Below, in pieces: positions 23,073-47,597 of a stretch of DNA of 58,897 nt (position 1 is its first letter; the number at the start of each line of letters is the position of its first letter). The stretch is taken from positions 1 through 58,897 of the forward strand of contig JBKHAC010000004.1 in the NCBI GenBank assembly GCA_046543095.1, in the 5' to 3' direction. Position numbers and translations under genes: made by a program. The notes beneath the pieces were generated by a model. It was not told where the DNA came from. It made no database searches and was given only the letters and a program-made list of their open reading frames with translations. The DNA is from Candidatus Woesearchaeota archaeon (GTDB lineage Archaea > Nanobdellota > Nanobdellia > Woesearchaeales > 21-14-0-10-32-9).

Positions 23073-23723
23073 ATGATGAATAAGAAACTTGTTTGTTTTG
23101 ATATGGATGGCGTAATTTTTCGTAAGCGTAATTTTTGGCTTGAGCTTCATAAGATATATGGTACGTTTGATGAGGGTGTGCGTTTAACTGAGAAATATTT
23201 GTATTCTGATTATGATAAGCTTGTTGAGGAAGTTGTAGTTAAACTTTGGTGTAATATGCCTGAGAACAAATATTTGGAGCTTGTTGAAAGTTATGAATAT
23301 TTAGAAGGTGTGCAAGAAATTTTTAGTTTTTTAAAAGAAAATAATTGTTTGTCTGCGATTATTAGCGCATCGAGTATTGATGTCGCGCGCAGGGTTCAAC
23401 GCGATTTCGGTGTTGATTTTTTATTTGCTAATTCTTTAATTTTTGAAGATGGTAAAGTGTCAGGCAAATTTGATTGGCCTGTTGGTGCAGGCAGTGGTGC
23501 TAAAGCAAGAATTATTCGAGATCTTCGTAAAAAATTAAATATTAATTCAGCGGACTTAATTTATGTAGGCGACAGTAAAAATGATGTTGAGGCTTTCAAG
23601 GAGGCTTCGATAAGTATTGCTTTTAATTGTTCTTATAATCCGTTAAAAGAACTTGCATCACACATTGTTGATTCTGATAATTTGAATGATATTTTGCCTA
23701 TTTTAAAAAAGAAATTAGCTTAA
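23073..23723 (+). CDS. HAD-superfamily hydrolase, phosphoserine-phosphatase-like
   Basis: HAD motif I CFDMDGV, motif II ISASS, motif III/IV K..(n)..YVGDSKNDVEAF. Confidence 0.75.
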   Translation: MMNKKLVCFDMDGVIFRKRNFWLELHKIYGTFDEGVRLTEKYLYSDYDKLVEEVVVKLWCNMPENKYLELVESYEYLEGVQEIFSFLKENNCLSAIISASSIDVARRVQRDFGVDFLFANSLIFEDGKVSGKFDWPVGAGSGAKARIIRDLRKKLNINSADLIYVGDSKNDVEAFKEASISIAFNCSYNPLKELASHIVDSDNLNDILPILKKKLA

Positions 23724-25415: not shown

Positions 25416-26150
25416 TCATTCGTCCCAGGGAAAAACAATCCATGTTTTTTGACCTATTATCTTCGAGTGGTGTGTCGGTTTTGTTTTTGAGTCTTTTTTG
25501 TAAAATATCGTGTATGAGTCATTATCCGAGTATTTGCTAAGTGTTTGGCCACTATCACATATATCATCTACTATTAGTGTTTGTTTTGTTATTTCTTTTT
25601 CATTTAAAAGTAATGGTTTGTTTAATTTATAGGATAGAATTGTTGCTATTATGATTCCACCTCTAGGGATGCCAAATATGTTTTCATATTTATTTAGTTT
25701 TGACAGTATTTGATCCACATAATTAATTATATCGCGCCATGTGTAGTGTTCCTTTTCTTGGTCTGATCTTTTATGTACTGTGCTTATGTTATCTTGTATT
25801 TCTTTTTGTATTTCTTGTTTTTGTTTTTTCTTTATCTCAGCCCACAGAGTTTTATTTTCTATTCCGTTAATTCTTTCAGTGTATTTTTTCTCTGACCTCT
25901 CAAATACTCGCTCAATTTTTATTTTTTCCTCATTTTCTAAATTAACCAATACATTAAGATAATCCCACAATATATCTCCTAGTTCATCTTCGAGTTTTAC
26001 GTGGTTGTTTGTTTTGTTTTCATCTTCGGTTTCTTGTATTTCTTTTTTTAGTTCGTTAAAATATGTCGTACTACCTTTTGACCAATCGCTTTTTTTATCT
26101 ATTAGAAGTTTTCTTTTTGCAAGTTCTATTATTTTTTTTATTTCATTCAT
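25416..26150 (-). CDS. Fusion of a MazG-like NTP pyrophosphohydrolase domain with a xanthine-guanine-type phosphoribosyltransferase domain
   Basis: The N-terminus has KKEIQETEDE..LEDELGDILWDYLNV (MazG E-x2-E / E-x2-D pattern). The C-terminus has IPRGGIIIATILS, the PRPP motif LIVDDICDSGQT and a Gpt-like end TWIVFPWDE. Confidence 0.65.
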   Translation of the reverse strand: MNEIKKIIELAKRKLLIDKKSDWSKGSTTYFNELKKEIQETEDENKTNNHVKLEDELGDILWDYLNVLVNLENEEKIKIERVFERSEKKYTERINGIENKTLWAEIKKKQKQEIQKEIQDNISTVHKRSDQEKEHYTWRDIINYVDQILSKLNKYENIFGIPRGGIIIATILSYKLNKPLLLNEKEITKQTLIVDDICDSGQTLSKYSDNDSYTIFYKKDSKTKPTHHSKIIGQKTWIVFPWDE

Positions 26151-27231
26151 TTTCTTGAAATAATTTTGTTTCTTGAAATATTAATTTTTTTTGCCAGTTC
26201 CTAAGAGACTCATAATTTTTGTTTCGGACAATATCGTGTACTTGGTCTTTTGTCATTATTAAGTATGGTTCTATATTAAATTTTTCGCCTAGTTTTACTC
26301 GTATATTTTCTAATTCTTGTAGTTCTTCTTTTTGTTTTTCTGTGTATTTTTTTAAATCTTTTTTAATTGTATTTGTTTGCATAGGTGTTATTTTTTTTGA
26401 TTGGTAGTATATTGTTTCAAGTTTTGCTTTGAGTGCTGGGTGTACTCCTTTTATTTTCTTCCAACCATCATGTTCTTGAGGCGGGTTTTGTGCAAGTTCT
26501 ATTATTCTTCTATTTGGCATTATTCTATGTATTGGTTTATTTGTTCTTTTTGCTATTATTTCTCTTGCATCGTATATTTTTTGTGCAAATATTTTTTCTT
26601 TAGCTGTGAGTTTTGTGATGCCTTTCATATCTTCGAATACTAGTTCCCTGTATTCATAATCTTTTTCATCTAAATGTTCAAGTTCTTCTTTGAGCCACTC
26701 TTCTCGTCCGAGTTTTTTTATTTCAGTCTCAATTAAGTCTTTTAGTTGTATTAAATAAGCTGTATCTTTTACTGCATAACTCATCATCTCAGGATTTATT
26801 GGACGCACTGTCCAATCTGCCATTTGGAATTTTGATTCTTTTTTGACGTTGAAGAATTTTTCAAGTAGTGAACCAAGTCCGACGTTTCGCTCACCTATAA
26901 GCAGTGCTGCTATTTGTGTGTCGAATAGGTTTTTTGGTTTTATTTGAAATTCGAAGTTCAGTATTCGAAGGTCGAAGCTTACGTCGTGAAATATTTTTTG
27001 TATGTTATTATTTTCTAATATTTTTTTAAGTGGCATTATTTCTTTAAGCTCTATTACATCCACTACGTAGTTTTTGTTTTTTGTTGATATTTGTATTATT
27101 GATATGTATGATCCATAGTGGTGGAGATTATTTTCACATTCGATATCTATCGCGATTGTTTTTTCTTCTTCAAGTATTTTGCACATCGCGTCTAATTCTT
27201 GTTTTGTTTTTATGTATTCGTATTGTATCAA
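26143..27231 (-). CDS. rnd: RNase D-like DEDDy 3'-5' exoribonuclease with HRDC domain
   Basis: Exo motifs IAIDIECEN, KIFHDVSFDLR and YAVKDTAYL. Also DTQIAALL and ADWTVRP. An HRDC-like segment (FAQKIYDAREIIAKRTNKPIHRIMPNRRIIELA) follows. Confidence 0.8.
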   Translation of the reverse strand: MIQYEYIKTKQELDAMCKILEEEKTIAIDIECENNLHHYGSYISIIQISTKNKNYVVDVIELKEIMPLKKILENNNIQKIFHDVSFDLRILNFEFQIKPKNLFDTQIAALLIGERNVGLGSLLEKFFNVKKESKFQMADWTVRPINPEMMSYAVKDTAYLIQLKDLIETEIKKLGREEWLKEELEHLDEKDYEYRELVFEDMKGITKLTAKEKIFAQKIYDAREIIAKRTNKPIHRIMPNRRIIELAQNPPQEHDGWKKIKGVHPALKAKLETIYYQSKKITPMQTNTIKKDLKKYTEKQKEELQELENIRVKLGEKFNIEPYLIMTKDQVHDIVRNKNYESLRNWQKKLIFQETKLFQENE

Positions 27232-27913: not shown

Positions 27914-28492
27914 TTAATTATTAATATTAAAGATTATTTTTGCAGCAGCATATTTTTTCTCCACGAATGGTTTCGCTTCAGCTAGTTCTATTTTATTCCA
28001 GCCTCGAGTAATTTTGTCCCTCATCCAAAGCATTGCATCTTCATAAGTCATAGTTTTGCATTTTCTATAAAACATGTGTGGGAATCTGCTTATATGGTCC
28101 ATCGCGTCTGCGCAAGATATTATTTTTTCTTCGATGCTGTTTCTTTTTTGTTTTTTGCTTCCGCGGTGATTTAGCATGCATTCATAAATTAAATTAATTT
28201 CTTCTTCTGGCAAGTTGTATTTTGATAATAATTTTTTAGAGAACTTCGCGCCTTCAATTTCGTGTATGTCGTGGTTTTTTGTTTGTATATAATAAATATC
28301 GTGCAAATAAGCTGAAATTATAACGACGAAAAGATTTGCATTATATATTTTTGCTAATTTAACAGCGTGGTTTTTAACACCTAATATGTGATTTTCAAAG
28401 ACGTCGTCTTCGGCAAAGCCTATTGATTCGTTTTTGACAAAATTGTGTATTTCTAATATTATTTCTTTTTGTTTTTTTGTTAAAGTCATCAT
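27914..28492 (-). CDS. HD-domain phosphohydrolase
   Basis: H..HD signature (NHAVKLAKIY .. AYLHDIYY). I moved the start to the ATG 8 nt after AAGGTGA; the listed TTG at 28513 lies upstream of that SD. Confidence 0.7.
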   Translation of the reverse strand: MMTLTKKQKEIILEIHNFVKNESIGFAEDDVFENHILGVKNHAVKLAKIYNANLFVVIISAYLHDIYYIQTKNHDIHEIEGAKFSKKLLSKYNLPEEEINLIYECMLNHRGSKKQKRNSIEEKIISCADAMDHISRFPHMFYRKCKTMTYEDAMLWMRDKITRGWNKIELAEAKPFVEKKYAAAKIIFNINN

Positions 28493-28607
28493 TAATTTGC
28501 AATCACCTTGCAAGTTTATTAACTTTGTGTTAATTGAGAATTTAGTTTTTTTATTAAATTTTTTTTAGTGCTTTTTATTAATTATAAGAAAAAAGAAAAA
28601 AGAGTAA

Positions 28608-30215: not shown

Positions 30216-31331
30216 TTATTTTATTATATTTGTTGCATAATCTATTCTTTTTATTTTGTAATCAGGCGTGGTTTTATTTGGGAAGTTTGATTTTATTCTT
30301 ATTGTTTTAAGTCCTATGTTTTGTCCTGCGAGTATGTCTGAATCCATGTCGCCTATCATGTAGCTTTTTGTTGTATCTATGTTGTATTTTTGTATTATTT
30401 TTTCAAATAGTCTTGTTTGTGGTTTTTTATCTGGGCAGTTTTCATCTCGTCTGTGTTCGCAGTATCCCCAGTCTTGAATTGTTATTCCTTTATCTTTGTA
30501 TTGTGCGGCGACTGATTTGAATACGTCTTCAACTTCATTTAGTGTCATTCTTCCTCGAGCAACCCAAGGTTGTGATGATATTATGAATAATTTGTAGCCT
30601 TTTTTTTGAAAATCAGATAGTGCTTTAAATGACTCTTCATATAGCTTGTCTGTAGGTATTATTTCAGGGTATTTTGAGTTGTCTGCTATTGTTCCGTCTT
30701 TATCGAGGAATATTGCTTTATTCATTTCTATTCCTAGGTAATTGTTTAAGTGAGATTGCATAACTAGGTTTATCGCTTCAGGTCGTCCATTCGTGTTTAT
30801 TATTCGCGAGTATGGCAGGTCTTTTGAAATTTCTAAGTATTTGTCTCTGAGTTTAGTTATTTTTTCTAGTTGTTCGTCTAAATTTAGTTGTTTTCCTTCT
30901 TCTTCATTTCTTTTATTTATTCTTTGAAGTGCTATTTCTGGGTCGCATAAAAGTATCATTGCAAGTCCTGGTGTTGGGTAAAAAGAGTTTAGTTCTCTTA
31001 TTTTTTTTATTGGTATTCCTTGTAGTGATTGGTATACTTCTGTTGATATGAATCCTCTATTTCCTATTATTAATGTATTTTGTTCATTTAGTAAATGTTC
31101 GTAGTCTTTTAATCCTTTTTTTCTGCTTTTAATGAATAACTCTAATTCTTTTTCAGGATTTCTTTGGGGCATATTTTTTATTTTTAAGATTTCATCTCTA
31201 AAGTAGTGTGGTTCTTGAAAAGTTATCACATCTAATCCTAAGTTTTTTTCTGCGTAGTTTTTTAAATCTTCTATTCTGTTATCTTTTCCAGATCCGCTTA
31301 TCCCATCTATCATTATGAGATTGTTAGTCAT
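30216..31331 (-). CDS. Fusion of a thymidylate/dNMP-kinase-like P-loop domain with a HAD-IIIA (GmhB/PNKP-type) phosphatase domain
   Basis: N-terminus: P-loop IDGISGSGKD, Tmk-like IIGNRGFISTEVYQ and a lid-like QRINKRNEE. C-terminus: HAD motif I FLDKDGT, IISSQP, CEHRRDENCPDKKPQ and GDMDSDILAG. Confidence 0.65.
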   Translation of the reverse strand: MTNNLIMIDGISGSGKDNRIEDLKNYAEKNLGLDVITFQEPHYFRDEILKIKNMPQRNPEKELELFIKSRKKGLKDYEHLLNEQNTLIIGNRGFISTEVYQSLQGIPIKKIRELNSFYPTPGLAMILLCDPEIALQRINKRNEEEGKQLNLDEQLEKITKLRDKYLEISKDLPYSRIINTNGRPEAINLVMQSHLNNYLGIEMNKAIFLDKDGTIADNSKYPEIIPTDKLYEESFKALSDFQKKGYKLFIISSQPWVARGRMTLNEVEDVFKSVAAQYKDKGITIQDWGYCEHRRDENCPDKKPQTRLFEKIIQKYNIDTTKSYMIGDMDSDILAGQNIGLKTIRIKSNFPNKTTPDYKIKRIDYATNIIK

Positions 31332-31978
31332 TTACCTGTTCCTCTAGGTGCTCCGCATCCGAGTATTCCGAAGTTTCTGTATAGTGCGTAGCAGTTTTCT
31401 TTTGAATAGAATTTTTTTTCTTCTTTTGTTGCAGGAGTGTCTTGTACTACGTTAACATCTGTCCATGAATTTGGGTGTGCGTAAAATGGGAAGTGTTTGT
31501 TTGGATTTGATATGAATACACCTGTAAATGTTTCGTTTTGCTCTAATGCTGTATATACTCTGTGTGCGCCATCGTTTATTATTGGTATTTGTATTCTAAC
31601 TTCATCATCGTATTTTATTTCTGATTTATGTGTTATGTATTTCACTGTTCTAGGCGTTATTTCTATTATTGGTGGTGTGATTGTCCAGATTTCGTCGTTT
31701 TCATTTTTTAGTTCATATGCTGCATCTAAGTGCAGAGAATCTATTCCAAAATTTTTCATTAAGTGTTCTCTTAGTTCATGTTGGAATTTTAAATTTTTTT
31801 CAATTAAATAAAATGTTGTTGGGTTAACTTCAAATGGAGAAAGTTCTCTAAATGATATATTTGCGTTTTCATAGACAAATATGTCTTTGTCATTTTCATC
31901 TTTTTGCATTAGTGGTACTTTTCTTATTTTTTGTTCTAACTCTGAAAATGGTATTTTATTTATTGGTTCTAGTCTCAT
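31328..31978 (-). CDS. ParB/sulfiredoxin (Srx)-fold-like protein, function unknown
   Basis: IPIINDGAHRVYTAL matches the core (I/V)-x-D-G-x-H-R motif of ParB N-terminal/Srx-like domains. Its stop overlaps the next start (ATGA). Confidence 0.45.
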   Translation of the reverse strand: MRLEPINKIPFSELEQKIRKVPLMQKDENDKDIFVYENANISFRELSPFEVNPTTFYLIEKNLKFQHELREHLMKNFGIDSLHLDAAYELKNENDEIWTITPPIIEITPRTVKYITHKSEIKYDDEVRIQIPIINDGAHRVYTALEQNETFTGVFISNPNKHFPFYAHPNSWTDVNVVQDTPATKEEKKFYSKENCYALYRNFGILGCGAPRGTGK

Positions 31979-32086
31979 TTATTTTTTCACCCTTAATGTT
32001 TACCCACCTTTTTTTATAAAAAAATAATTAAATAAAAAATAAATAATTTTTATAATAGTTAAATTTAATTAACGTATTATGCTTTT

Positions 32087-33775
32087 TTATTTTCTTTTCT
32101 CTTGGTCATACCAAGTTCTTGCGTTTTTTATTAAGTGTTGAGGATATGTTTGTTTGTCGACTTTTAAGTATTGTCCGAATGTTGGTGCTTTTTCTTTTAC
32201 TTTGTCTGCAACATCCCACGCAATTTCTCTATATGAGTCATGCCCTGGGCTTTTGCTTCTAAGTTCTATGTAGTATCCGTCTTGTCCTGCTGACCAGTTT
32301 ATTAGTCGTCTGCATTTAAATGCGAATGGAACGATTAGTTGTGCCACATATTTGTTATCTGCATGTATATTATTGAATGTTGTTGAAATCTCATTTAATA
32401 TTTGGTTATATTCTTTTTCAAGGCCTGCTGTTTTTATCATTTGTGGCATTTCAAATCCATGTTCTGTTGTGAGTGTTTGTCTAAGCCATGCTCCTCGTCT
32501 GTGTCTGTGATTGTCTCTATCTGCACCGTAATCTATTAGTGTTTCAAATATTGGCGTATCTATTAGTGTTGGTTTTGGGAATGGGTCGAATTTTCCTCTG
32601 TTTTTGAATGTTTGATGTATTATTTCTTGTGCTTTTTTTGGATTTTTTGTTAATTCATCATGATATTGTTCAAATGATCCGTTTCCGTAGTGCCACGCCA
32701 TTGATGATGCTATGAATACGTCAGTAAAGCTTTCAACATTTTCAACAAAGTTTGTTCTTGGTGTTACCTCAAATTTTCTGTTTTTTTCAAATTCGAATAG
32801 TTTCGGTAATGCTTCATCAAAGTAATCTCTAAGTGCTAATTGGTATTCGTTTATTTTTGCATGTGATTTCTCACCCATTAATACAGGTACTACTTTTTGT
32901 GCTTCTTCAATTATTGTTTTTCCTATTTCTCTATCTTGTTTTAGTGGACTCGATAAGAAGTCTGTTACAACTTCCTCTAGTGCTCTAACTTCCATTGATA
33001 CCCCTACTGATGTGAGCATGGAAGGTGTTAGTAAGTATCTTGAATAATCAAGCATCGATTTTCGTGCATTGGCATCGTATGCATTTATTATTTGTTCTTT
33101 TGTTTTACTTGTATCGTTATTTAGCATGTGGCTTAAGAATTCTTGATTTAGTGGATGGTTTCCTGTGAATGTTTCTAGTTTGTGTGTTATTTCTTGATAG
33201 CTATTTATTATTTTTTTTAATGAGGTAAATATTTCCTCTGCGTGTTTTGAGTTTTTTAAATCTAAGTTATCTTCTGATTTTGCAAGAACGTTTTTCCAAT
33301 CTATATATCTTGATGATTTTACTTGTGGGTGTGCAAGGGGGTGCCCTGTTATTAATTTTCCTGATAAGTCAGGTATATTTTCACATACAAATCGTACATT
33401 TCCAAGTTCTTTTATTGAATTATGTCCGTAGCTTTGTGCCCATTTTTGTATAAATTGTTTATTTTTTTCTGTAGGTAATCTCCAGTTTTCTGTGAAGTCA
33501 GAATATGCCTTTTTTAATTGTTCAACATCTATTCCCGTTATATCTTGTGGTATTGAGTCCATTTTTGGAAGTGGCAAGTCTTCTGATTCTATGCTTAATA
33601 GTAATCTTTTTTGAAATGGTTCGTGTGTTCTGCTGTATGCTGCTGCAAGTGTTGCGAATTGTTCTGGAGGGATTGTGTCATATACGAAGAATATGTCTGA
33701 GAATGGTTTTGATACGTATAGCGATAGTATTGCTTCTTCTTGTTCTTCTGTAAATTTTTCTGTAAATTTCCCCAT
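32087..33775 (-). CDS. Tandem-domain ThyX (Thy1, flavin-dependent thymidylate synthase)-like protein
   Basis: Half 1: VRFVCEN..GHPLAHPQVKSSRY and SRYLLTPSMLTSVGVSMEVRALEEV..QDREI. Half 2: GADRDNHRHRRGAW and AQLIVPFAFKCRR..YIELRSKSPGHDSYREIA. Both align by eye to ThyX motifs. Confidence 0.55.
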   Translation of the reverse strand: MGKFTEKFTEEQEEAILSLYVSKPFSDIFFVYDTIPPEQFATLAAAYSRTHEPFQKRLLLSIESEDLPLPKMDSIPQDITGIDVEQLKKAYSDFTENWRLPTEKNKQFIQKWAQSYGHNSIKELGNVRFVCENIPDLSGKLITGHPLAHPQVKSSRYIDWKNVLAKSEDNLDLKNSKHAEEIFTSLKKIINSYQEITHKLETFTGNHPLNQEFLSHMLNNDTSKTKEQIINAYDANARKSMLDYSRYLLTPSMLTSVGVSMEVRALEEVVTDFLSSPLKQDREIGKTIIEEAQKVVPVLMGEKSHAKINEYQLALRDYFDEALPKLFEFEKNRKFEVTPRTNFVENVESFTDVFIASSMAWHYGNGSFEQYHDELTKNPKKAQEIIHQTFKNRGKFDPFPKPTLIDTPIFETLIDYGADRDNHRHRRGAWLRQTLTTEHGFEMPQMIKTAGLEKEYNQILNEISTTFNNIHADNKYVAQLIVPFAFKCRRLINWSAGQDGYYIELRSKSPGHDSYREIAWDVADKVKEKAPTFGQYLKVDKQTYPQHLIKNARTWYDQEKRK

Positions 33776-34079
33776 TCTAAATATTCCCCCTGAATTAAAA
33801 GTTATCTTAACATATTAAAAATTATTAAAAAATCATAATTTTGTTTTTGTTACTACTATGAAATCCAGATATTATTTAAATGTTTTTATTGACGAGAAAA
33901 TATGTTTGTTTTTGTCACTTAGTTGTTATTAAAACCCAGATAAAATGTGACTTTGAACAATATTTGAATAATTAGTTTATTTTTTTATTTATTTTTTATT
34001 TGAAACTATTTGTTTTAATTTTAATTATTTGTTTATTTTAAAGTTACTTTTTTAAACGAGTGTTTATTCTTCCATTGTT

Positions 34080-35198
34080 ATGGAACCTAGATGTAAATAC
34101 TTCGGCGTGTGTGGTGGTTGTTCTAATCAGCACGTTCCGTATAGTGTTCAGCTTGAAAATAAGCGTAAGAATCTTGCAATTTTTACTAATTTTCCGGAGG
34201 ATGAAATAAGTGTAATTTCTGGTGATGATTTTAATTATCGTAATCGTATGGATTTTGTTTTTTCAAATAATAAAATTGGTTTTCGAAAAAAGGGTGTGTG
34301 GCATAGCGTGGTTGATATCGATGTGTGTCCTATTTCTAATGAGAAATTGAATTTATTACTCAGAGAAGTTCGGGATTTCTTTTTACCGTATAAGGCTGAT
34401 TTTTTTGATTTGAAATCTCAGGTTGGTCTTTTTCGTTATGCTGTAATTCGCACTCCATCTAATACGAGTTCTATCACTATTATTTTAAATGATGATTCTC
34501 CTGATAAATCTCGCGGCAGGGTGCTTGTTGAGAAATTTGCGGAAGTGACTAGTGCTGAGAATGTTCTTGTGGGTTATAATCATAAGCAGAGCGATGTTAG
34601 TGTGACGACTAATTTTGAGGTTTTGAAAGGCTCTGAATTTCTTGATGAAGAAATTCTTGGCAGAAAGTTAAGGTTTCACTCACAGGCTTTTTTTCAAAAT
34701 AACACCGAGATGGCTCGCGCTCTTGTGAGTGTTGTGCGAGGCATTTTGGAGCGTCAGAGGAATAATTGTAATTTGCTTGATTTGTATGGCGGTGTTGGGA
34801 CTTTTGGTGTTTGCTTAAGTGATTTGTTTCGTAAAGTTACAGTAGTTGAGTGCGTTGAGCCTGCAATCATTGCTGCTAAGAAAAATGCTGAATTAAACAA
34901 TATAACTAACCTTGATGGCTTTGTTCTTGATGCTCAGCAGATTAATCGTCTTAATTTATTGAAGCCTTTAAAAGTTATTACTGATCCTCCTCGTAGTGGT
35001 ATGACTCCGAAGGCTATTGAGCGTTTGCGTGCTCTTGGTGCAGATAGTATTATTTATGTTTCGTGTAATGCGCGTCAGCTTCAGCGTGAGCTTTCTAAAT
35101 TTAAAGAGTATGAGGTTAAATCAGTTTTTTTAGTTGATTTGTTTCCGCAGACTAATCATTTTGAAGCAGTTATTGAGCTTTGTAAAAAATATGTGTAA
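34080..35198 (+). CDS. RumA/RumB/TrmA-family RNA (uracil-5-)-methyltransferase with Fe-S cysteine cluster
   Basis: N-terminal CKYFGVCGGC plus DVCPIS cysteines. SAM motif LLDLYGGVGTFG, ITDPPRSG, and the catalytic region YVSCNARQL. Confidence 0.85.
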   Translation: MEPRCKYFGVCGGCSNQHVPYSVQLENKRKNLAIFTNFPEDEISVISGDDFNYRNRMDFVFSNNKIGFRKKGVWHSVVDIDVCPISNEKLNLLLREVRDFFLPYKADFFDLKSQVGLFRYAVIRTPSNTSSITIILNDDSPDKSRGRVLVEKFAEVTSAENVLVGYNHKQSDVSVTTNFEVLKGSEFLDEEILGRKLRFHSQAFFQNNTEMARALVSVVRGILERQRNNCNLLDLYGGVGTFGVCLSDLFRKVTVVECVEPAIIAAKKNAELNNITNLDGFVLDAQQINRLNLLKPLKVITDPPRSGMTPKAIERLRALGADSIIYVSCNARQLQRELSKFKEYEVKSVFLVDLFPQTNHFEAVIELCKKYV

Positions 35199-44160: not shown

Positions 44161-45750
44161 TCATAAAATGTGTTTTTCTATTATTTTGATTATTTTATTG
44201 AAATCTTTTTTATTTGCTTCATATTTCGCGAATTCTACTAATGAACATAAATCGAAGCATTCTTTTGCTTCTTTGTAATTTTTTTTGTGTTTTTTTAGGT
44301 AGTCTATGATTTCGTCATTTGTTATTTCTTTATTGAGTTTGTTTTCATAGCTTAAATATAATCTTAGTGCTTGTCCTGCTGCGCCGTATGCGTCTTTGTA
44401 TTCTTCTTTTTCGAATAGTTTCTTTGATTTTTGAAGTAATAGTAAGCTTTCTTTTTTGTAATCAAATGGTTTTTCTGTTTTCTTTTCAGCGTTTGATTTT
44501 TCAGGTTTTGATTTTTTGTGAATTTTTTTGTATGCGAAATAGCTTAGTATTGTTATTAATGATATAATTATTAGGAGTTGCCAGTAGTTTTTCTTTTCTT
44601 TTTTTCCGTTTTTAAGTTCAACATTTTGAATTGTATTGTTCATAATTTCAGCCATTATGCTTGCAGTTTCATTATTTTCATTAAAATAGTTTAGTTGCAC
44701 ATTTGTTTTATTTTGTTCTTGGTAAAATTGTGTATTTTGTTGAGAATAACCTTGATCTTGTAGTTGTTGGTGGTATTTTTGAAATTGTTTATTTTCTTGT
44801 AGTTCGTTCAGTATTTGTTGTCTTGATTCAGCTGTGTTTTTCTGAATGTTTTGTATCTTGCTATTATTCATTTGACCTAAGAGTGTTGCTTGTTCATTTT
44901 TTTGGTTTTGATATTCTAACTCAAAATCTCCTGTGTTATTAGAACTTGGATTAAACTTTGCATTAGTCAGATTATATCCTTGATTTAGTAGTTCTTGATG
45001 CTCTTTTTGGAATTCTTGATTTTGTGCTAATTCTTTTTGAAATTCTTCTTTCATTTGTTGTTGTTCTTGGAATTGATTTTGCATTTGTTGTTTTAGAGCA
45101 GAGCTGTCTTGAGATAATTGGTTGTTTTGCAGTCTTTGTTCTGTTCTTTGTGGTTGTTGTTGCTCCTGTCCAAAGATTTGATTTGTCATTTGTTGCATTC
45201 TTTGTTGTTGTTGAGTGAATGGATTGTTTTGTTGTTTAGTTTCTTGTGAAGTTTCTTGTGATGAACTACTTATTTGATTTTGTTGGTTGTTTTTTTGTGA
45301 ATCTTTGTTTATAAAATGTATTTTAATATTGTTTAAATTTACAGATTTTGATTTGTTTTTTGTATAAGAAAATTGTAAGTCTATATCTAATACTATTGGC
45401 GTGTCTGATGTTCCAAAATTAATGGGAGTTTGTGTTTTTCCTTGGTTTATTGAAAAAGAAGTTGATTTCATGTTTGTGCTTGAATATTGAAAATTACCTT
45501 GGTTTATTGATTGGGTTATGGTGTAGCTTAACATCCCGTTTATTTGTTCTTTGTAATTATTTTCTGATTGTAAATTTATTATTGCATTTTCTCCTGTTTT
45601 AAAATAATATTCGGATTGTTCTAGAGATAAAATTATATCTTTAGCAGAAACTAAAGGTATTGCGAGTATAAAAATTAGTAGGCTGAATATTATTTTTTGA
45701 CTCATTGTGTGAATTTTTGATTTATGTTTGAAATTTTGGAAAAAGTTCAT
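44161..45750 (-). CDS. Membrane protein with extracellular beta-rich domain, long Gln-rich region, TM helix and DUF4129-like cytoplasmic tail
   Basis: N-terminal signal/anchor; Q-rich low-complexity core; TM helix WQLLIIISLITILSYFAY. The C-terminal helical segment ..EITNDEIIDYL..CSLVEFAKYEANKKDF is DUF4129-like. Confidence 0.5.
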   Translation of the reverse strand: MNFFQNFKHKSKIHTMSQKIIFSLLIFILAIPLVSAKDIILSLEQSEYYFKTGENAIINLQSENNYKEQINGMLSYTITQSINQGNFQYSSTNMKSTSFSINQGKTQTPINFGTSDTPIVLDIDLQFSYTKNKSKSVNLNNIKIHFINKDSQKNNQQNQISSSSQETSQETKQQNNPFTQQQQRMQQMTNQIFGQEQQQPQRTEQRLQNNQLSQDSSALKQQMQNQFQEQQQMKEEFQKELAQNQEFQKEHQELLNQGYNLTNAKFNPSSNNTGDFELEYQNQKNEQATLLGQMNNSKIQNIQKNTAESRQQILNELQENKQFQKYHQQLQDQGYSQQNTQFYQEQNKTNVQLNYFNENNETASIMAEIMNNTIQNVELKNGKKEKKNYWQLLIIISLITILSYFAYKKIHKKSKPEKSNAEKKTEKPFDYKKESLLLLQKSKKLFEKEEYKDAYGAAGQALRLYLSYENKLNKEITNDEIIDYLKKHKKNYKEAKECFDLCSLVEFAKYEANKKDFNKIIKIIEKHIL

Positions 45751-46697
45751 TGTATTATCCTCCTCCCTCCATAACGCAAGTATAGATATATTAAGAATGT
45801 AATTAATGATGCGATGAAGAACCAGTCTTTTATGTTGGTTTCTTCTTTTTCTCTTTCAATATCTTGGCTGATGTTTTTGTATATTTCATTAAGTGTTTTT
45901 TCGTCTACTGATTTAAAATAATTTCCTCCTGTTTCCTTTGCAATTGTTTTTAGTGTTTCTTCATCAAGTTCTGCATATTGAGGTCGTCCAAACCAGTCAT
46001 AACCTAAAACTACTTGATCTTCCGAACCCATTCCAATGGTATATACTTGAATATTATTTGCTTTGGCGAATGCTATTCCTTCTGCGGGACTTATCACTCC
46101 CGCGTTGCTTACGCCGTCTGAGAGCAGGATTACTACTTTTTTTTTGTTAGGAATAGATGTTGCCATATCAATTCCAAGAGATAATCCATCGCCTATTGCT
46201 GTTTTTCCTTCTCTTGGAGCTATGCTTCTAAGTTTTTCTATAACTTTTTCTTTATAAGGACTAAGGTATGCTGCAGTTGTTGCTCCTGATTCAAAAGTTA
46301 TAATTCCGGTATGATCTTTTTGTTTTAGGGAGTCTAGTAGTATTTCAGCTGATTTTTTTGCGGCTTCAAGTCTTGTAGGTTGATAATCAGTTGCTTGCAT
46401 GCTTCCAGAAATATCCATTACTAAAACAACATTAACGCCTTCTTTTGCTTGTTTTAATGGTATGTGAGGATTGGCAAATCCGATAATCATAAATATTAAA
46501 ACTAAAAGTGCAACATAAAATAACACATCATTTCTTTTTGATTTCTTTTTATCTCCAAGAGCTGATTTGATGAATCCTATATTGCTAAATTTTATGGCAT
46601 CTTTTTTCTTTTTATCAATAATTAATTTGTATACATAATATATTATAGGTATGGAAATTAGGAATAATAAAATCCATGGAGATTCAAATCCTGTCAT
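45747..46697 (-). CDS. von Willebrand factor A domain membrane protein (BatA-like)
   Basis: MIDAS motif VMDISGSM .. LLSDG; N- and C-terminal TM helices; 4-nt overlap with the next gene. Confidence 0.8.
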   Translation of the reverse strand: MTGFESPWILLFLISIPIIYYVYKLIIDKKKKDAIKFSNIGFIKSALGDKKKSKRNDVLFYVALLVLIFMIIGFANPHIPLKQAKEGVNVVLVMDISGSMQATDYQPTRLEAAKKSAEILLDSLKQKDHTGIITFESGATTAAYLSPYKEKVIEKLRSIAPREGKTAIGDGLSLGIDMATSIPNKKKVVILLSDGVSNAGVISPAEGIAFAKANNIQVYTIGMGSEDQVVLGYDWFGRPQYAELDEETLKTIAKETGGNYFKSVDEKTLNEIYKNISQDIEREKEETNIKDWFFIASLITFLIYLYLRYGGRRIIQ

Positions 46698-47578
46698 TAT
46701 GCTATCACCTTTTTTTGTCTTGTTTTAAAGAATTTGCGTAGAGGGATTTCGTATGCTTGATTAGTTGTTATTTCTACTGTGTCTATTTTATGTTTCTTAA
46801 AAAGAGTGTTTAATTTATTGTTTTGTGTTTTGATTATTTTTGAATAATTTTCTCTGAATTCTTTATCTGATGTGTCAATAAGTATTTGTTCGTCTGTTTC
46901 TTCATCTTCTAATTGTATAAGTCCTATATCTGGGAGTTCTGTTTCTCTTGTATCTGCTATTTTTATTGCTATAACGTCGTGTTTGTTTTTTAGGGCGGTT
47001 AGTGGTTGTGTGAAATCGTCCGAGTAAAAATCAGATATTACAAATAATATGCTTCTTTTTTTAATTATATTAGCTATATAGGTTAAAGATTTTTTTAGAT
47101 TGGTTTCTTTTGATTGTGGTTTGTGTGTGATTAATTTGCTGATGATTTTTAGGATGTGTCTTCTTCCTTTTCTTTCAGGAATGTATTTTTCAACGCTGTT
47201 TGTGAATATGAATAAACCAACATTATCATTATTTCTTAATGCGGAGAACATTAATGTTGCGGTTAATTCAATTGCTTTTTTTCTTTTTTCAATGAGATTT
47301 CCAAAGTTTCCTGAGGCTGAGAAATCAAATGCGAAAAAAACTCTTAAATCTCTTTCTTCAATAAATTCTTTGATGAATGGGTGGTTGAATCTTGCTGTTA
47401 CTTTCCAGTCAATTGCGCGTATATCATCTCCGGGTCGGTAATCTCTAATTTCAGAAAATTCTATTCCTTGTCCTTTAAAAATGGAGTGGTAGTTGCCTGC
47501 TATTAATCCGTCGACTAAATGTTTGGTTTTAAGTTCTATTTTTTTTATTTGAGCAATTACTTCTTTCATTTGTTGCAT
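46697..47578 (-). CDS. DUF58-family protein (MoxR-associated)
   Basis: IRAIDWKVTAR motif and the degenerate VWA-like core FAFDFSASG. Shares one base with the downstream start. Confidence 0.75.
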   Translation of the reverse strand: MQQMKEVIAQIKKIELKTKHLVDGLIAGNYHSIFKGQGIEFSEIRDYRPGDDIRAIDWKVTARFNHPFIKEFIEERDLRVFFAFDFSASGNFGNLIEKRKKAIELTATLMFSALRNNDNVGLFIFTNSVEKYIPERKGRRHILKIISKLITHKPQSKETNLKKSLTYIANIIKKRSILFVISDFYSDDFTQPLTALKNKHDVIAIKIADTRETELPDIGLIQLEDEETDEQILIDTSDKEFRENYSKIIKTQNNKLNTLFKKHKIDTVEITTNQAYEIPLRKFFKTRQKKVIA

Positions 47579-47597
47579 TCTAAAAGACCTCTTTTTT

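What the first reader, a model, noticed from the sequence alone, without database searches (positions are those of the whole stretch)
30216..33775. Co-oriented cluster: tandem ThyX-like protein, ParB/Srx-like protein and kinase-phosphatase fusion (candidate uncharacterised pyrimidine or nucleic-acid-modification/repair module)
Three - strand genes lie in a row. The first is a 562-aa protein with two Thy1/ThyX-like halves. After a 108-nt spacer containing TATA-like and SD-like sequences comes a 216-aa protein with a ParB/sulfiredoxin-type DGxHR core. It is translationally coupled (ATGA overlap) to a 371-aa fusion of a Tmk-like P-loop kinase and a HAD-IIIA phosphatase. ThyX plus Tmk alone would be ordinary dTMP to dTDP synthesis. 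The ParB/Srx-fold protein, the phosphatase fused to the kinase, and the degenerate tandem ThyX are not part of that textbook pathway. One alternative is a pyrimidine (hyper)modification or salvage pathway working on nucleotides or DNA. Another is a PNKP-like end-healing cassette with a ParB-like NTPase/nuclease. I cannot assign it to any described system from sequence alone.
Basis: partly seen in the sequence, partly recalled or inferred. Interest (0 to 1): 0.72.

Follow-up and report, generated by a model that had tools for sequence, protein, structure and literature searches.

The report
Conserved thymidylate operon with unknown ParB-like enzyme
The three genes are real and belong to a widely conserved four-part operon for making the DNA building block thymidylate in tiny symbiotic archaea and bacteria; one part is an uncharacterised ParB/sulfiredoxin-fold protein whose job in that essential pathway is unknown.

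Summary
The window (a DPANN/Woesearchaeota-like chromosome) encodes a tandem ThyX-like protein, a 216-aa ParB/Srx-fold protein (Pfam PF24392, "ParB catalytic effector", ParB-CE) and a Tmk + HAD-IIIA fusion. In 25 species-level genomes the same row recurs: about 20 of 22 informative loci hold all four functions. The phosphatase is either fused (HAD-IIIA) or a separate capped HAD gene. Elsewhere ParB-CE is fused to HAD, HD or NUDIX hydrolases. It sits beside dCTP deaminase, a DCD-NUDIX fusion, NrdR plus ribonucleotide reductase, and NT5C. In about 35 of 80 bacterial loci it directly follows a dCMP deaminase. This is deoxypyrimidine (dUMP to dTMP to dTDP) metabolism. It is not PNKP-like end healing, and I found no sign of DNA hypermodification. 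The two ThyX halves keep complementary, invariant subsets of the canonical catalytic residues, which suggests an active enzyme with fewer composite sites. ParB-CE keeps the SerK/SbnI kinase-type D-G-x-H-R motif but lacks ParB's hydrolytic Glu and Srx's Cys. I favour a pyrimidine deoxynucleoside/-tide phosphotransferase paired with the nucleotidase. An NTP-sensing regulator and a dNTP hydrolase remain live rivals. I found no publication describing this linkage.

The parts
32087..33775 (-). Tandem (two-domain) ThyX-like flavin-dependent thymidylate synthase homologue, 562 aa
   Evidence: ORF. Pfam Thy1 matches in 2 stretches, 66.5 bits against a cut-off of 24.8. TIGR02170 scores only 28 against 87.9. 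AF2 pLDDT is 91.6 and the Foldseek top 50 are all ThyX at probability 1.0. 35 homologues of 547-619 aa were found.
32846..33775 (-). N-terminal ThyX half (residues 1-310). It keeps the equivalents of T. maritima H53, H79, S88, R90, Y91 (S154, R156, Y157), E144/R147 (D243/R246). It loses R78 (G144), R80 (P146), E86 (V152) and R174 (L274).
   Evidence: HMM alignment to H. pylori ThyX, hhalign to TM0449, family invariants.
32087..32845 (-). C-terminal ThyX half (residues 311-562). It keeps R74 (R420), R78-H79-R80 (R424-H425-R426) and R174 (R506). The S88-G-R90-Y91 segment is deleted and R147 is replaced by Q479.
   Evidence: hhalign to TM0449, E 5e-5; invariant columns R420, D421, R424, H425, R426, Q433.
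31979..32086 (-). 108-nt A+T-rich spacer with a TATA-like TTTATAAAAA and a Shine-Dalgarno-like AAGGGTGA before the ParB-CE start
   Evidence: Sequence read directly. In most related loci this gap is absent (overlaps of 4 nt) or under 70 nt.
31328..31978 (-). ParB/Srx-fold 'ParB catalytic effector' (ParB-CE, PF24392) protein, 216 aa, stand-alone, without HTH or dimerisation domain
   Evidence: Pfam 57.8 bits against a cut-off of 23. AF2 pLDDT 93.8. Foldseek top hits are pNOB8 ParB-N, Noc, Srx, SerK, Atu1540, SbnI and PadC. hhalign to SbnI/SerK gives E 4.6e-5. The family has 654 clusters at 50% identity.
31559..31573 (-). D136-G-A-H139-R140 nucleotide-phosphate motif of ParB-CE (GAT GGC GCA CAC AGA)
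   Evidence: Invariant in 145 family representatives. It aligns with D58-G-V-H-R of SbnI and D-G-H-H-R of SerK.
31328..31331 (-). ATGA stop/start overlap coupling ParB-CE to the kinase-phosphatase gene
   Evidence: Sequence. The same -4 or -1 overlaps occur in many related loci.
30732..31331 (-). Tmk-like P-loop kinase domain (residues 1-200) of the 371-aa fusion
   Evidence: PF02223 70.6 bits. TIGR00041 scores 83.2 against a cut-off of 83.25. Motifs GxxGxGK, EP, F..R, R of the DR motif, YQ and the LID arginines are conserved. The residue after the P-loop Lys is Asp and DR is NR in the window protein.
30216..30731 (-). HAD-IIIA phosphatase domain (residues 201-371) of the fusion
   Evidence: TIGR01656 scores 100 against 84.15 and TIGR01662 scores 93.2 against 44.6. 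Motifs I-IV (FLDKDGT, SSQP, KKP, GDMDSD) are intact and conserved in 10 fused orthologues.
33776..34079 (.). 304-nt divergent intergenic region upstream of the ThyX-like gene (AGGGGG before the ATG; A+T-rich), shared with a tRNA(U5)-methyltransferase-like gene
   Evidence: Sequence; Pfam tRNA_U5-meth_tr for 34080-35198.

Best explanation
The cluster is the window's copy of a conserved four-function deoxypyrimidine operon that supplies and buffers thymidylate. Step 1 (inferred from fold and invariant residues): the tandem ThyX-like protein is an active flavin-dependent thymidylate synthase. Its two fused halves have each kept a complementary subset of the catalytic residues, so a dimer of the fusion would build about two complete composite active sites instead of four. 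It converts dUMP to dTMP. Step 2 (inferred from family membership and motifs): the Tmk-like domain phosphorylates dTMP to dTDP. Step 3 (inferred from three interchangeable HAD types, including NT5C): the HAD phosphatase is a pyrimidine deoxynucleoside-monophosphate nucleotidase. Step 4 (least certain): ParB-CE is an NTP-using enzyme of the SerK/SbnI (small-molecule kinase) branch of the ParB/Srx fold. I favour a phosphotransferase acting on a pyrimidine deoxynucleoside or deoxynucleotide, for example dU/dC/dT to the 5'-monophosphate. That would feed dCMP deaminase or ThyX and, with the nucleotidase, form a kinase/nucleotidase substrate cycle that sets the dUMP/dTMP pool. Upstream, dCTP deaminase plus NUDIX, or dCMP deaminase, supply dUMP, and RNR supplies the deoxyribonucleotides. 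My sub-confidences are: module is deoxypyrimidine/thymidylate metabolism, about 0.85; tandem ThyX is the cell's dTMP synthase, about 0.75; ParB-CE is a catalytic phosphotransferase, about 0.45; ParB-CE is specifically a deoxynucleoside kinase, about 0.3.
For: Synteny: ThyX-like, ParB-CE, Tmk and HAD co-occur in about 20 of 22 informative species-level loci, although the ThyX-like proteins share only 28-31% identity. Even a 29%-identical ThyX-like has the same row, followed by NrdR and class II RNR. The phosphatase function is kept through replacement: fused HAD-IIIA in 10 loci, a separate capped HAD in 11, NT5C in L036. Fusions link the components: Tmk-HAD, Tmk-ThyX (L011), ParB-CE-HAD, HD-ParB-CE, ParB-CE-NUDIX and HD-Tmk. 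Pathway neighbours: dCTP deaminase plus Tmk in a CPR-like bacterium; a DCD-NUDIX fusion and recurrent NUDIX; SHMT, dCMP deaminase, HAD, ParB-CE in Desulfofundulus; dCMP deaminase directly upstream of ParB-CE in about 35 of 80 bacterial loci. ThyX: every canonical residue that is retained is invariant in the family, and the losses are complementary between the halves. [quoted passage not shown] ParB-CE: the invariant set is Y36, Y57, E106, D136, G137, H139, R140, W172, R201. DGxHR aligns to the SerK/SbnI kinase motif. ParB/Srx-fold small-molecule kinases are established (PMC5120207; PDB 5x0b, 5uje). ParB-CE is the best-conserved protein of the module, at 44-58% identity. The kinase and HAD motifs are intact.
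Against: No activity was measured, so the ParB-CE substrate is inferred only from neighbours. ParB-CE's invariant E106 aligns with a hydrophobic strand residue of SbnI/SerK, not with their catalytic Glu20/Glu30, so a shared kinase mechanism is not shown. Fold matches are weak (Foldseek E 0.03-0.9). A kinase encoded or fused with a phosphatase that reverses it looks futile unless it is regulated. ParB-CE fused to NUDIX or HD fits sequential hydrolysis or sensor-effector logic at least as well. The ThyX-ParB-CE link is not obligatory. A UGA-recoded CPR lineage has the tandem ThyX alone, and most bacterial ParB-CE genes have no ThyX nearby. Neither ThyX half alone carries the RHR-X7-S motif, and the protein is far below the TIGR02170 cut-off. 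The kinase has Asp after the P-loop Lys and NR for DR. I could not test whether these genomes lack tdk/dNK, ndk or dut.
Confidence: 0.5

Rival explanations
1. ParB-CE is not a metabolic enzyme but an NTP-binding (dCTP/CTP or dTTP) sensor or switch subunit. It would gate the partner enzymes (dCMP deaminase, nucleotidase, ThyX, Tmk) and so provide the dCTP/dTTP feedback that allosteric dCMP deaminases have built in.
For: The ParB fold is the classic CTP switch and binds CTP, ATP or GTP in different families (PMC12704722). A phage ParB-like protein lacking a DNA-binding domain is an obligatory activator of a thymine C5-methyl dioxygenase, with NTP-site mutants still active (PMC13229309). Fusions to HAD, HD and NUDIX look like sensor-effector architectures. 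The partner varies (deaminase, HAD, ThyX) while ParB-CE stays constant. ParB-CE is very highly conserved and translationally coupled to its neighbours.
Against: Nine invariant polar or aromatic residues beyond the NTP motif suggest a second, specific ligand pocket. ParB's hydrolytic Glu is absent. ParB-CE is fused to phosphohydrolases only, never to the deaminase or ThyX that it would regulate. Curators named the family 'catalytic effector'.
Confidence: 0.25
2. ParB-CE is a pyrimidine (d)NTP gamma-phosphohydrolase (dCTP or dUTP to the diphosphate). Together with the HAD, HD or NUDIX partner it would produce dCMP or dUMP for the deaminase or ThyX, acting as a two-step dCTPase/dUTPase.
For: ParB hydrolyses CTP to CDP (PMC13229309). 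ParB-CE is fused or adjacent to three unrelated phosphohydrolase superfamilies, as expected for consecutive hydrolytic steps. It is placed right after dCMP deaminase, or beside dCTP deaminase, where a source of dCMP/dUMP is needed. This reading gives every gene a productive, non-futile role.
Against: The Glu of ParB's GERR that drives CTP hydrolysis is a variable Ala/Leu/Met in ParB-CE. NUDIX alone can convert dNTP to dNMP, and NUDIX co-occurs with HAD and ParB-CE in L013 and L015. HAD enzymes are mainly monoester phosphatases, and NT5C is a dNMP nucleotidase.
Confidence: 0.13
3. The module makes a non-canonical pyrimidine nucleotide. For example, the divergent ThyX-like enzyme hydroxymethylates or methylates dUMP/dCMP, ParB-CE and Tmk phosphorylate the product, and HAD trims it, for DNA (hyper)modification.
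For: The ThyX-like protein is very divergent (TIGR02170 28 bits; profile E about 1e-3 to PDB ThyX), with a remodelled active site. ThyX homologues with other substrates exist (PolB UMP methylase, PMC5003785, listed). ParB-like proteins accompany thymine hypermodification in phages. L029 combines HD-ParB-CE, HD-Tmk, NUDIX and a Dam-type methyltransferase.
Against: The module sits in housekeeping chromosome next to ribosomal-protein genes, RNR, SerRS and the atp operon. No transferase, glycosylase or DNA-binding partner is present, and there are no viral homologues. The bacterial clade pairs ParB-CE with ordinary dCMP deaminase and SHMT. No second, canonical thymidylate synthase was seen in any locus.
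Confidence: 0.06
4. The module is a PNKP-like nucleic-acid end-healing cassette (5'-kinase + 3'-phosphatase) with a ParB-like nuclease/NTPase.
For: A kinase + HAD-IIIA fusion has the same domain logic as PNKP. There are faint Pfam hits to PNK3P and HAD_PNKP (E 0.009 and 0.03, both below cut-off). Some ParB-like proteins have been reported as nucleases (PMC5120207 text).
Against: The kinase is Tmk-type with dTMP-binding motifs. TIGR01663 PNK-3'Pase scores 15.6 against 502.8. In 11 loci the HAD is a separate capped non-IIIA enzyme, and in one it is NT5C. All conserved neighbours are nucleotide-pool enzymes, with no ligase or RNA-repair partner.
Confidence: 0.02
5. ParB-CE is a nucleoside-diphosphate kinase analogue (dTDP to dTTP) that completes the route from dUMP to dTTP within the operon.
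For: It would complete a linear pathway with ThyX and Tmk. The ParB/Srx fold transfers the terminal phosphate of ATP/ADP to oxyanion acceptors.
Against: It does not explain the dominant pairing with dCMP deaminase and with nucleotidases in bacteria, where Tmk is not adjacent. NDP kinase is not pathway-specific. The phyletic absence of ndk was not tested.
Confidence: 0.04

Closest known systems
Flavin-dependent thymidylate synthase ThyX (Pfam Thy1 PF02511; T. maritima TM0449, M. tuberculosis and H. pylori ThyX)
   Same: Same fold in both halves (Foldseek probability 1.0). It retains the equivalents of H53, R74, R78-H79-R80, S88, R90, Y91, R147 and R174, all invariant in the family. It sits in a dUMP/dTMP pathway context.
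   Different: It is a single 562-aa chain with two fused domains instead of a roughly 220-aa subunit forming a homotetramer. The RHR-X7-S signature is split: RHR only in the C-half, S-x-R-Y only in the N-half. It is far below the TIGR02170 equivalog cut-off (28 against 87.9). Large helical insertions are present. Activity is untested.
Free serine kinases SerK (T. kodakarensis TK0378; PDB 5x0b) and SbnI (S. aureus; PDB 5uje), the ParB/Srx-fold small-molecule kinases
   Same: A stand-alone ParB/Srx core without HTH. The D-G-x-H-R motif is aligned by profile comparison (E 4.6e-5). They appear among the top structural matches. They are metabolic enzymes rather than DNA clamps.
   Different: About 10% identity. 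The catalytic Glu (E30/E20) has no aligned invariant counterpart. ParB-CE has its own invariant set (Y36, Y57, E106, W172, R201, R212) and extra N- and C-terminal elements. Its genomic context is deoxypyrimidine metabolism, not serine/cysteine or siderophore metabolism.
Canonical ParB/Noc CTPase clamps and sulfiredoxin
   Same: Shared nucleotide-binding fold and the H/R-R phosphate-binding dyad.
   Different: ParB-CE has no HTH, no C-terminal dimerisation domain and no ParA partner. ParB's GERR Glu and Srx's catalytic Cys are replaced by a variable hydrophobic residue, and the cysteines of ParB-CE are not conserved.
Phage ParB-like activator of thymine dioxygenase (5mYOX), PMC13229309
   Same: A ParB-fold protein without a DNA-binding domain, genetically coupled to an enzyme acting at C5 of a pyrimidine, alongside P-loop kinases.
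   Different: That system is viral, post-replicative and acts on DNA, and its ParB belongs to PF02195 with a dimerisation domain. ParB-CE is cellular, absent from viral contigs, and sits among nucleotide-pool enzymes.
Mammalian/mitochondrial thymidine-nucleotide substrate cycle (TK1/TK2 + cdN/mdN of the NT5C family + TMPK). This comparison rests on my own knowledge, not on a tool result.
   Same: It combines a deoxynucleoside kinase, a HAD-superfamily 5'(3')-deoxyribonucleotidase and dTMP kinase acting on dU/dT nucleotides. NT5C itself is the ParB-CE/Tmk neighbour in L036.
   Different: There the kinase is a P-loop or TK1-type enzyme and the genes are unlinked. Here the kinase role of ParB-CE is only hypothesised.
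Polynucleotide kinase-phosphatase (PNKP / T4 Pnkp)
   Same: A P-loop kinase fused to a HAD-IIIA phosphatase.
   Different: The domain order and families differ (a Tmk-type kinase; the HAD is closest to the histidinol-phosphatase/GmhB group). PNKP models are far below cut-off. The context is nucleotide metabolism.

Membership tests
ThyX / flavin-dependent thymidylate synthase | Thy1 fold | tested here: met
   Pfam PF02511 scores 66.5 bits against 24.8, in two stretches. The Foldseek top 50 are all ThyX at probability 1.0 with TM (target) about 0.55.
ThyX / flavin-dependent thymidylate synthase | ThyX signature RHR-X7-S (followed by x-R-Y) within one domain | tested here: not met
   The N-half has G-H-P...S-S-R-Y. 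The C-half has R-H-R with the S-G-R-Y segment deleted. The signature exists only when the two halves are combined.
ThyX / flavin-dependent thymidylate synthase | NCBIfam equivalog TIGR02170 score above cut-off | tested here: not met
   28 bits against a cut-off of 87.9.
ThyX / flavin-dependent thymidylate synthase | FAD/NADPH/methylene-folate-dependent conversion of dUMP to dTMP; composite active sites at subunit interfaces | not testable with these tools
   No coordinates or multimer prediction were available, and no assay. The context (DCD, dCMP deaminase, Tmk, RNR) is consistent.
ParB/Srx superfamily | ParB/Srx nucleotide-binding fold | tested here: met
   Foldseek top 29 hits are all ParB-N, Noc, Srx, SerK, Atu1540 or SbnI, with PadC following at rank 31 (E 0.03-0.9, probability up to 0.96). 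hhalign to SbnI/SerK gives E 4.6e-5. The matches are weak, so this is a divergent member.
ParB/Srx superfamily | Phosphate-binding motif (GxxR/GGCHR/DGxHR) at the N-terminus of the core helix | tested here: met
   D136-G-A-H-R140 is invariant in 145 representatives and aligns to SbnI D58-G-V-H-R.
Canonical chromosome-partition ParB (TIGR00180 type) | HTH DNA-binding domain, C-terminal dimerisation domain, GERR with hydrolytic Glu, ParA partner | tested here: not met
   The protein is 216 aa with only PF24392. The Glu position is Ala or another variable residue. No ParA was seen in any locus.
Sulfiredoxin | Catalytic Cys in F-G-G-C-H-R | tested here: not met
   The position is Ala138. The family cysteines C196 and C208 are conserved in under 15% of representatives.
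SerK/SbnI free serine kinases | Catalytic Glu (E30/E20) about 38 residues before D-G-x-H-R | tested here: inconclusive
   D-G-x-H-R is shared. E20 of SbnI falls in a gap after L84 of ParB-CE. The nearby E89 is not invariant, and the invariant E106 aligns to SbnI V46.
Pfam PF24392 ParB-CE ('ParB-like catalytic effector') | Score above the gathering threshold | tested here: met
   57.8 bits against 23. All 87 close homologues carry PF24392. The name comes from UniRef.
dTMP kinase (Tmk; PF02223 / TIGR00041) | Family model scores | tested here: inconclusive
   PF02223 scores 70.6 against 27 (met). TIGR00041 scores 83.2 against 83.25, just below the equivalog cut-off.
dTMP kinase (Tmk; PF02223 / TIGR00041) | P-loop GxxGxGK(S/T), DR(Y/H) motif, thymine-stacking Phe, LID arginines | tested here: inconclusive
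   GxxGxGK, EP, F..R, the motif Arg, YQ and the LID R..R are conserved. However, the residue after Lys is Asp/Gly in the fused forms and the DR Asp is variable (Asn in the window). The E. coli reference was recalled from memory.
HAD-IIIA phosphatase | Subfamily models and catalytic motifs I-IV (DxDxT, S/T, K, GDxxxD), no large cap | tested here: met
   TIGR01662 scores 93.2 against 44.6 and TIGR01656 scores 100 against 84.15. FLDKDGT, SSQP, KKP and GDMDSD are conserved in 10 orthologues.
PNKP (polynucleotide kinase 3'-phosphatase) | PNK-type kinase plus DNA 3'-phosphatase models above cut-off | tested here: not met
   TIGR01663 scores 15.6 against 502.8. TIGR01664 scores 18.8 against 107.65. 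PF08645 scores 16.1 against 22.
Phage thymidine-hypermodification cassettes | Viral location; hydroxymethylase/5mYOX plus 5-HMUDK kinase plus amino-acid:DNA transferase or glycosyltransferase partners | tested here: not met
   No ParB-CE relatives in IMG/VR contigs. No such partner families among recurrent neighbours. The context is housekeeping chromosome.

The most novel reading that the evidence does not exclude
ParB-CE (PF24392) is a previously unrecognised, non-P-loop class of pyrimidine deoxynucleoside/deoxynucleotide phosphotransferase, or an NTP-gated catalytic partner of dNMP phosphohydrolases. On this reading it is a core component of dUMP/dTMP supply in DPANN archaea, CPR bacteria and many anaerobic bacteria. 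It works beside a tandem ThyX whose two halves have subfunctionalised into half-site composite active centres.
Probability: 0.35. Interest if true: 0.78.

Novelty: new variant of a known kind. Interest (0 to 1): 0.62.

Why it matters
dTTP supply is essential, and it is a drug-target pathway because ThyX is absent from humans. DPANN archaea and CPR bacteria make up a large share of microbial diversity. They cannot make nucleotides de novo, and how they balance deoxynucleotide pools is poorly understood. This work defines a four-function operon conserved across both groups. It shows that a catalogued but unstudied ParB/Srx-fold family (654 clusters at 50% identity) is tied to the dCMP/dUMP/dTMP node in many lineages. 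That gives a concrete, testable candidate for a missing activity in pyrimidine deoxynucleotide metabolism: a kinase, a regulator or a hydrolase. It would also add a third enzymatic use of the ParB fold after sulfiredoxin and serine kinase. The tandem ThyX with complementary half-sites is a natural experiment on how many active sites a flavin-dependent thymidylate synthase needs.

Tried and rejected
1. Redox or thiol-nucleophile role for the C-terminal 'LGCGxPR' tail. Rejected: C196 and C208 are conserved only within the DPANN clade and in under 15% of 145 family representatives.
2. E106 as the equivalent of SerK's catalytic Glu30. Rejected by profile alignment, where E106 aligns to a strand Val.
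3. ParB-CE as an obligate subunit of tandem ThyX. Weakened: a UGA=Gly CPR lineage has the tandem ThyX alone, and most bacterial ParB-CE genes lack a nearby ThyX.
4. Flavin-cofactor idea (riboflavin kinase/FMN hydrolase/FAD pyrophosphatase) and serine kinase/phosphoserine phosphatase idea. Dropped: ParB-CE also occurs with Tmk + NT5C or with dCMP deaminase and no flavoenzyme.
5. Viral origin. No relatives in IMG/VR.
6. Sequence searches of the PDB with single proteins or profiles gave nothing useful for ParB-CE, and only E about 1e-3 for ThyX.
7. Literature searches for 'ParB-CE', 'PF24392', 'HD-CE', 'catalytic effector', and ThyX+ParB found no description. Two papers that might be relevant (Iyer et al. 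2013 NAR; the SbnI JBC paper) are not held.
8. tRNA and Rfam scans of the window found nothing.
9. I could not map which subunit contributes which residue to the ThyX site, because the models are returned without coordinates.
10. I could not test genome-wide absence of tdk, ndk or dut, because only the loci are available.

Full report
OBSERVATION. The 108-nt spacer (31979-32086) contains TTTATAAAAA about 35 nt, and AAGGGTGA about 8 nt, upstream of the second gene's ATG. The second and third genes overlap as ATGA. Pfam and NCBIfam confirm the domain calls. Thy1 (PF02511) matches in two stretches (E 3e-18). PF24392 'ParB CE' matches at E 1.6e-15. Thymidylate_kin matches at E 1.8e-19. A HAD-IIIA domain matches TIGR01662 at 93 bits against 44.6 and TIGR01656 at 100 against 84. 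The window is ordinary archaeal chromosome: PAN ATPase, PCNA, thermosome, a Ski2-type helicase, an aminoacyl-tRNA synthetase and ABC transporters. Its closest relatives are named Candidatus Woesearchaeota.

STRUCTURES. An 80-sequence alignment gave a confident model of the 216-aa protein (pLDDT 93.8). Its only meaningful structural neighbours are ParB/Srx-superfamily members: pNOB8 ParB-N, Noc, sulfiredoxin, the free serine kinases SerK and SbnI, Atu1540 and PadC. Scores are weak (E 0.03-0.9, probability up to 0.96), so it is a divergent ParB/Srx core with large additions. The 562-aa protein modelled at pLDDT 91.6. The top 50 PDB matches are all ThyX (probability 1.0). By sequence it is remote: a family profile reaches PDB ThyX only at E about 1e-3, and TIGR02170 scores 28 against a cut-off of 87.9.

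SYNTENY: THE MODULE HAS FOUR PARTS. I fetched 25 loci from different species-level genomes through the ParB-like protein. These are Woesearchaeota, Pacearchaeota, Micrarchaeota and unclassified archaea. I scored them with tblastn and local HMMs. The ThyX-like gene lies directly upstream on the same strand in 19 loci. It is separated by one gene in L014 and L011, and is divergent in L022. Two loci are cut at that end, and one (L024) lacks it. A Tmk-like kinase follows ParB-like in about 20 loci.

A phosphatase is always present too. It is either the fused HAD-IIIA domain (9 loci plus the window) or a separate capped HAD gene of about 215 aa directly after a kinase of about 210 aa (10 loci; L011 and L016 also have this capped HAD but no free kinase in front of it). 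Pfam confirms these calls. In L011 the kinase is fused to the N-terminus of the ThyX-like protein. Gene junctions are mostly -4 or -1 overlaps. No other neighbouring family occurs in more than 6 loci. Across these loci the ThyX-like proteins share only 28-31% identity, whereas ParB-like shares 44-58%, which makes it the most conserved member. A ThyX-like protein only 29% identical (P0122) has the same row, followed by NrdR and an intein-containing class II ribonucleotide reductase.

THE WIDER ParB-CE FAMILY. An exhaustive profile search found 654 clusters at 50% identity (488 at E no greater than 1e-10). Nearly all are stand-alone proteins of 190-230 aa. UniRef calls them 'ParB-like catalytic effector domain-containing protein'. 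The rare longer members are fusions to HAD (P0131), HD (P0240) and NUDIX (P0264), which are three unrelated nucleotide-phosphohydrolase superfamilies. The contexts are as follows.
- A CPR-like bacterium has Tmk and dCTP deaminase placed divergently from tandem-Thy1, ParB-CE and HAD, inside the rplKAJL-nusG-secE cluster.
- L031 has ParB-CE, then a ParB-CE-HAD fusion, then Tmk.
- L036 has NT5C (5'(3')-deoxyribonucleotidase family) and Tmk placed divergently from ParB-CE, IMPDH and GMP synthase.
- L021 has Tmk-HAD followed by a dCTP-deaminase-NUDIX fusion. The same NUDIX family recurs in four other archaeal loci.
- The cultured Firmicute Desulfofundulus thermosubterraneus has SHMT, a ComEB-like dCMP deaminase, HAD and ParB-CE in a row.
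- In 80 metagenomic loci of the bacterial clade, the gene directly upstream of ParB-CE is a dCMP-deaminase-type protein of about 205 aa in about 35 loci. It is a HAD in about 17 loci, often preceded by a 149-aa deaminase and SHMT.
- No relatives occur in viral contigs.

All of this places ParB-CE at the dCMP/dUMP/dTMP node of deoxynucleotide metabolism. Its most constant companions are a dNMP-type phosphohydrolase, dCMP deaminase and Tmk.

THE TANDEM ThyX. I recalled the T. maritima TM0449 sequence and validated it against the residue numbers in PDB entry titles (H53, S88, R90, E144, R174). The N-half keeps the equivalents of H53 (mostly), H79, S88, R90, Y91 (S154, R156, Y157), E144/R147 (D243/R246). 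It has G, P, V and L at the positions of R78, R80, E86 and R174. The C-half keeps R74 (R420), R78-H79-R80 (R424-426) and R174 (R506). It has deleted S88-R90-Y91 and has Gln at the position of R147. Every retained canonical residue is invariant or nearly so across 34 family members.

[quoted passage not shown] The complementary pattern is what would be expected if, after duplication and fusion, half of the composite sites were kept intact and the other half decayed. I infer an active enzyme with fewer sites. I could not verify the geometry, because coordinates are not returned. A CPR subgroup that reads UGA as Gly carries the tandem ThyX without any ParB-CE nearby. It has 14 in-frame TGA codons, and at the best-conserved of these columns the relatives have Gly. 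The tandem enzyme is therefore probably self-sufficient and ParB-CE is not its obligate subunit. This was a prediction of mine that failed.

WHAT ParB-CE MIGHT DO. Across 145 representatives (median 30% identity) the invariant residues are Y36, Y57, P102, P103, E106, D136, G137, H139, R140, W172 and R201 (R212 at about 88%). Both cysteines are poorly conserved, which rules out sulfiredoxin-like or thiol chemistry. Real SbnI and SerK sequences recovered from the PDB show 'HE(20/30) ... DGxHR'. Profile-profile alignment (E 4.6e-5) superposes ParB-CE D136-G-A-H-R140 on SbnI D58-G-V-H-R. The position of ParB's hydrolytic Glu (GERR) and of Srx's Cys is a variable hydrophobic residue. The motif is therefore of the kinase branch, not the CTPase-clamp or Srx type. 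E106, however, aligns to a strand Val rather than to the kinases' catalytic Glu, so a shared catalytic base is not shown. Small-molecule kinase activity in this fold is established for SerK (PMC5120207).

I weigh the contexts as follows.
- Favoured: a phosphotransferase on a pyrimidine deoxynucleoside/-tide, opposing or cooperating with the HAD nucleotidase. This mirrors the TK/dCK, cdN/mdN and TMPK substrate cycle known in mammals (my own knowledge), and NT5C itself is the partner in L036.
- Rival 1: an NTP (dCTP/dTTP)-sensing regulatory subunit. The phage ParB-like activator of thymine dioxygenase is a precedent (PMC13229309).
- Rival 2: a dCTP/dUTP gamma-phosphohydrolase that works before HAD, HD or NUDIX.
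- An NDP-kinase role fits the bacterial contexts poorly.

THE KINASE-PHOSPHATASE. The kinase domain has the Tmk hallmarks: GxxGxGK, EP, F..R, the motif Arg, YQ and the LID arginines. It sits exactly at the TIGR00041 threshold (83.2 against 83.25). In the fused forms the residue after the P-loop Lys is Asp or Gly, and the DR Asp is Asn in the window protein. HAD-IIIA motifs I-IV are intact and conserved. PNKP models score far below cut-off. The HAD is replaced by other HAD types in half the loci. The PNKP-like reading is therefore rejected.

COMPARISON AND NOVELTY. Each domain family is known, and PF24392 is catalogued. I found no paper describing ParB-CE, its linkage to ThyX, Tmk, HAD and dCMP deaminase, or the complementary half-site tandem ThyX. 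A 2025 survey of the ParB-CTPase fold does not mention thymidylate. I classify this as a new variant of a known kind: a thymidylate/deoxypyrimidine operon containing an uncharacterised ParB/Srx-fold component and an unusual tandem ThyX.

CAVEATS. Loci were retrieved through ParB-CE, so the frequencies are conditional on its presence. My ORF calling in the loci was simple. The E. coli Tmk reference was recalled from memory. TM0449 and SbnI were also recalled, but both were validated. No whole-genome absence or presence test, multimer model or assay was possible.

VERDICT. My best explanation is a thymidylate supply and buffering operon. Confidence is about 0.85 for the pathway assignment and about 0.3-0.45 for the specific ParB-CE chemistry. 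Interest is 0.62.

Noticed in passing
L122:6001-7656 (and proteins P0104, P0109-P0111, P0115, P0117, P0118): This subgroup of tandem ThyX-like genes has 14 in-frame TGA codons. At the best-conserved of these columns the relatives have Gly, so the lineage reads UGA as Gly (code 25, Gracilibacteria/Absconditabacteria-like; locus GC 24%). The database proteins carry Trp at these sites because the wrong code was used. This ThyX has no ParB-CE within 6 kb.
   Followed up: partly
window 25416-26150 (-), 27914-28513 (-), 26143-27231 (-): About 4-5 kb from the module lie a MazG-type NTP pyrophosphohydrolase with a faint C-terminal PRTase motif (244 aa), a stand-alone HD-domain protein (199 aa) and an RNase D-like 3'-5' exonuclease/HRDC protein. 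These are further nucleotide house-cleaning or salvage candidates that could supply dUMP. A separate 216-aa HAD lies at about 23073-23723 (+).
   Followed up: partly
window 34080-35198 (+): A tRNA/rRNA (uracil-5)-methyltransferase-like gene (PF05958) is transcribed divergently from the ThyX-like gene across a 304-nt intergenic region, so two uracil-C5 methylating enzymes sit back to back. tblastn found no homologue of it in the 25 related loci, so the pairing looks local.
   Followed up: partly
L014:2632-3336, L017:137-622, L022:7167-7892: A CARF/Csa3_N-like Rossmann domain (HFX_2341_N) with a probable winged-helix C-terminus is inserted between the ThyX-like and ParB-CE genes in three archaeal genomes. 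It may be a ligand-sensing transcription regulator of the operon.
   Followed up: partly
L021:9823-11655: A 610-aa fusion of a long-form dCTP deaminase (DCD_N + DCD_C) with a NUDIX domain sits directly after Tmk-HAD. The same NUDIX family is free-standing in L011, L013, L015 and L023. It is a candidate dCTP to dUTP to dUMP bifunctional enzyme, that is, a NUDIX-type dUTPase.
   Followed up: partly
L029:1-9352: This contig combines a Tmk fragment, a 426-aa protein without a Pfam match, an HD-ParB-CE fusion, a Dam-type (D12) methyltransferase, an HD-Tmk fusion and a NUDIX protein. It is a different, possibly mobile, nucleotide-metabolism variant of the ParB-CE theme.
   Followed up: no
L034:11882-16873: NrdR and an intein-containing (LAGLIDADG) class II ribonucleotide reductase of 1513 aa lie immediately downstream of the ThyX-like, ParB-CE, Tmk-HAD row in a Woesearchaeota genome.
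   Followed up: no
window 15845-18592 (+): A 915-aa protein combines a GH57 glycoside hydrolase domain with a starch/glycogen-synthase (Glyco_transf_5) domain, which is an unusual fusion of glycogen-metabolism functions.
   Followed up: no
window 45747-48587 (-): A MoxR AAA+ ATPase, DUF58 and BatA/VWA three-gene cluster. A similar MoxR-VWA cluster also lies near the ParB-CE genes in L031.
   Followed up: no
window 1-58897: No tRNA, tmRNA or Rfam family was detected anywhere in the 58.9-kb window. GC is 26-34%, and AT skew is strongly negative over most of the window.
   Followed up: no
window 31328-31978 and L001-L025: Within the DPANN clade only, ParB-CE ends in a near-invariant 'LGCGxPR' tail (C208) preceded by 'DCYALYRDFG' (C196). 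These cysteines are not conserved in the wider family, so any role would be clade-specific.
   Followed up: yes
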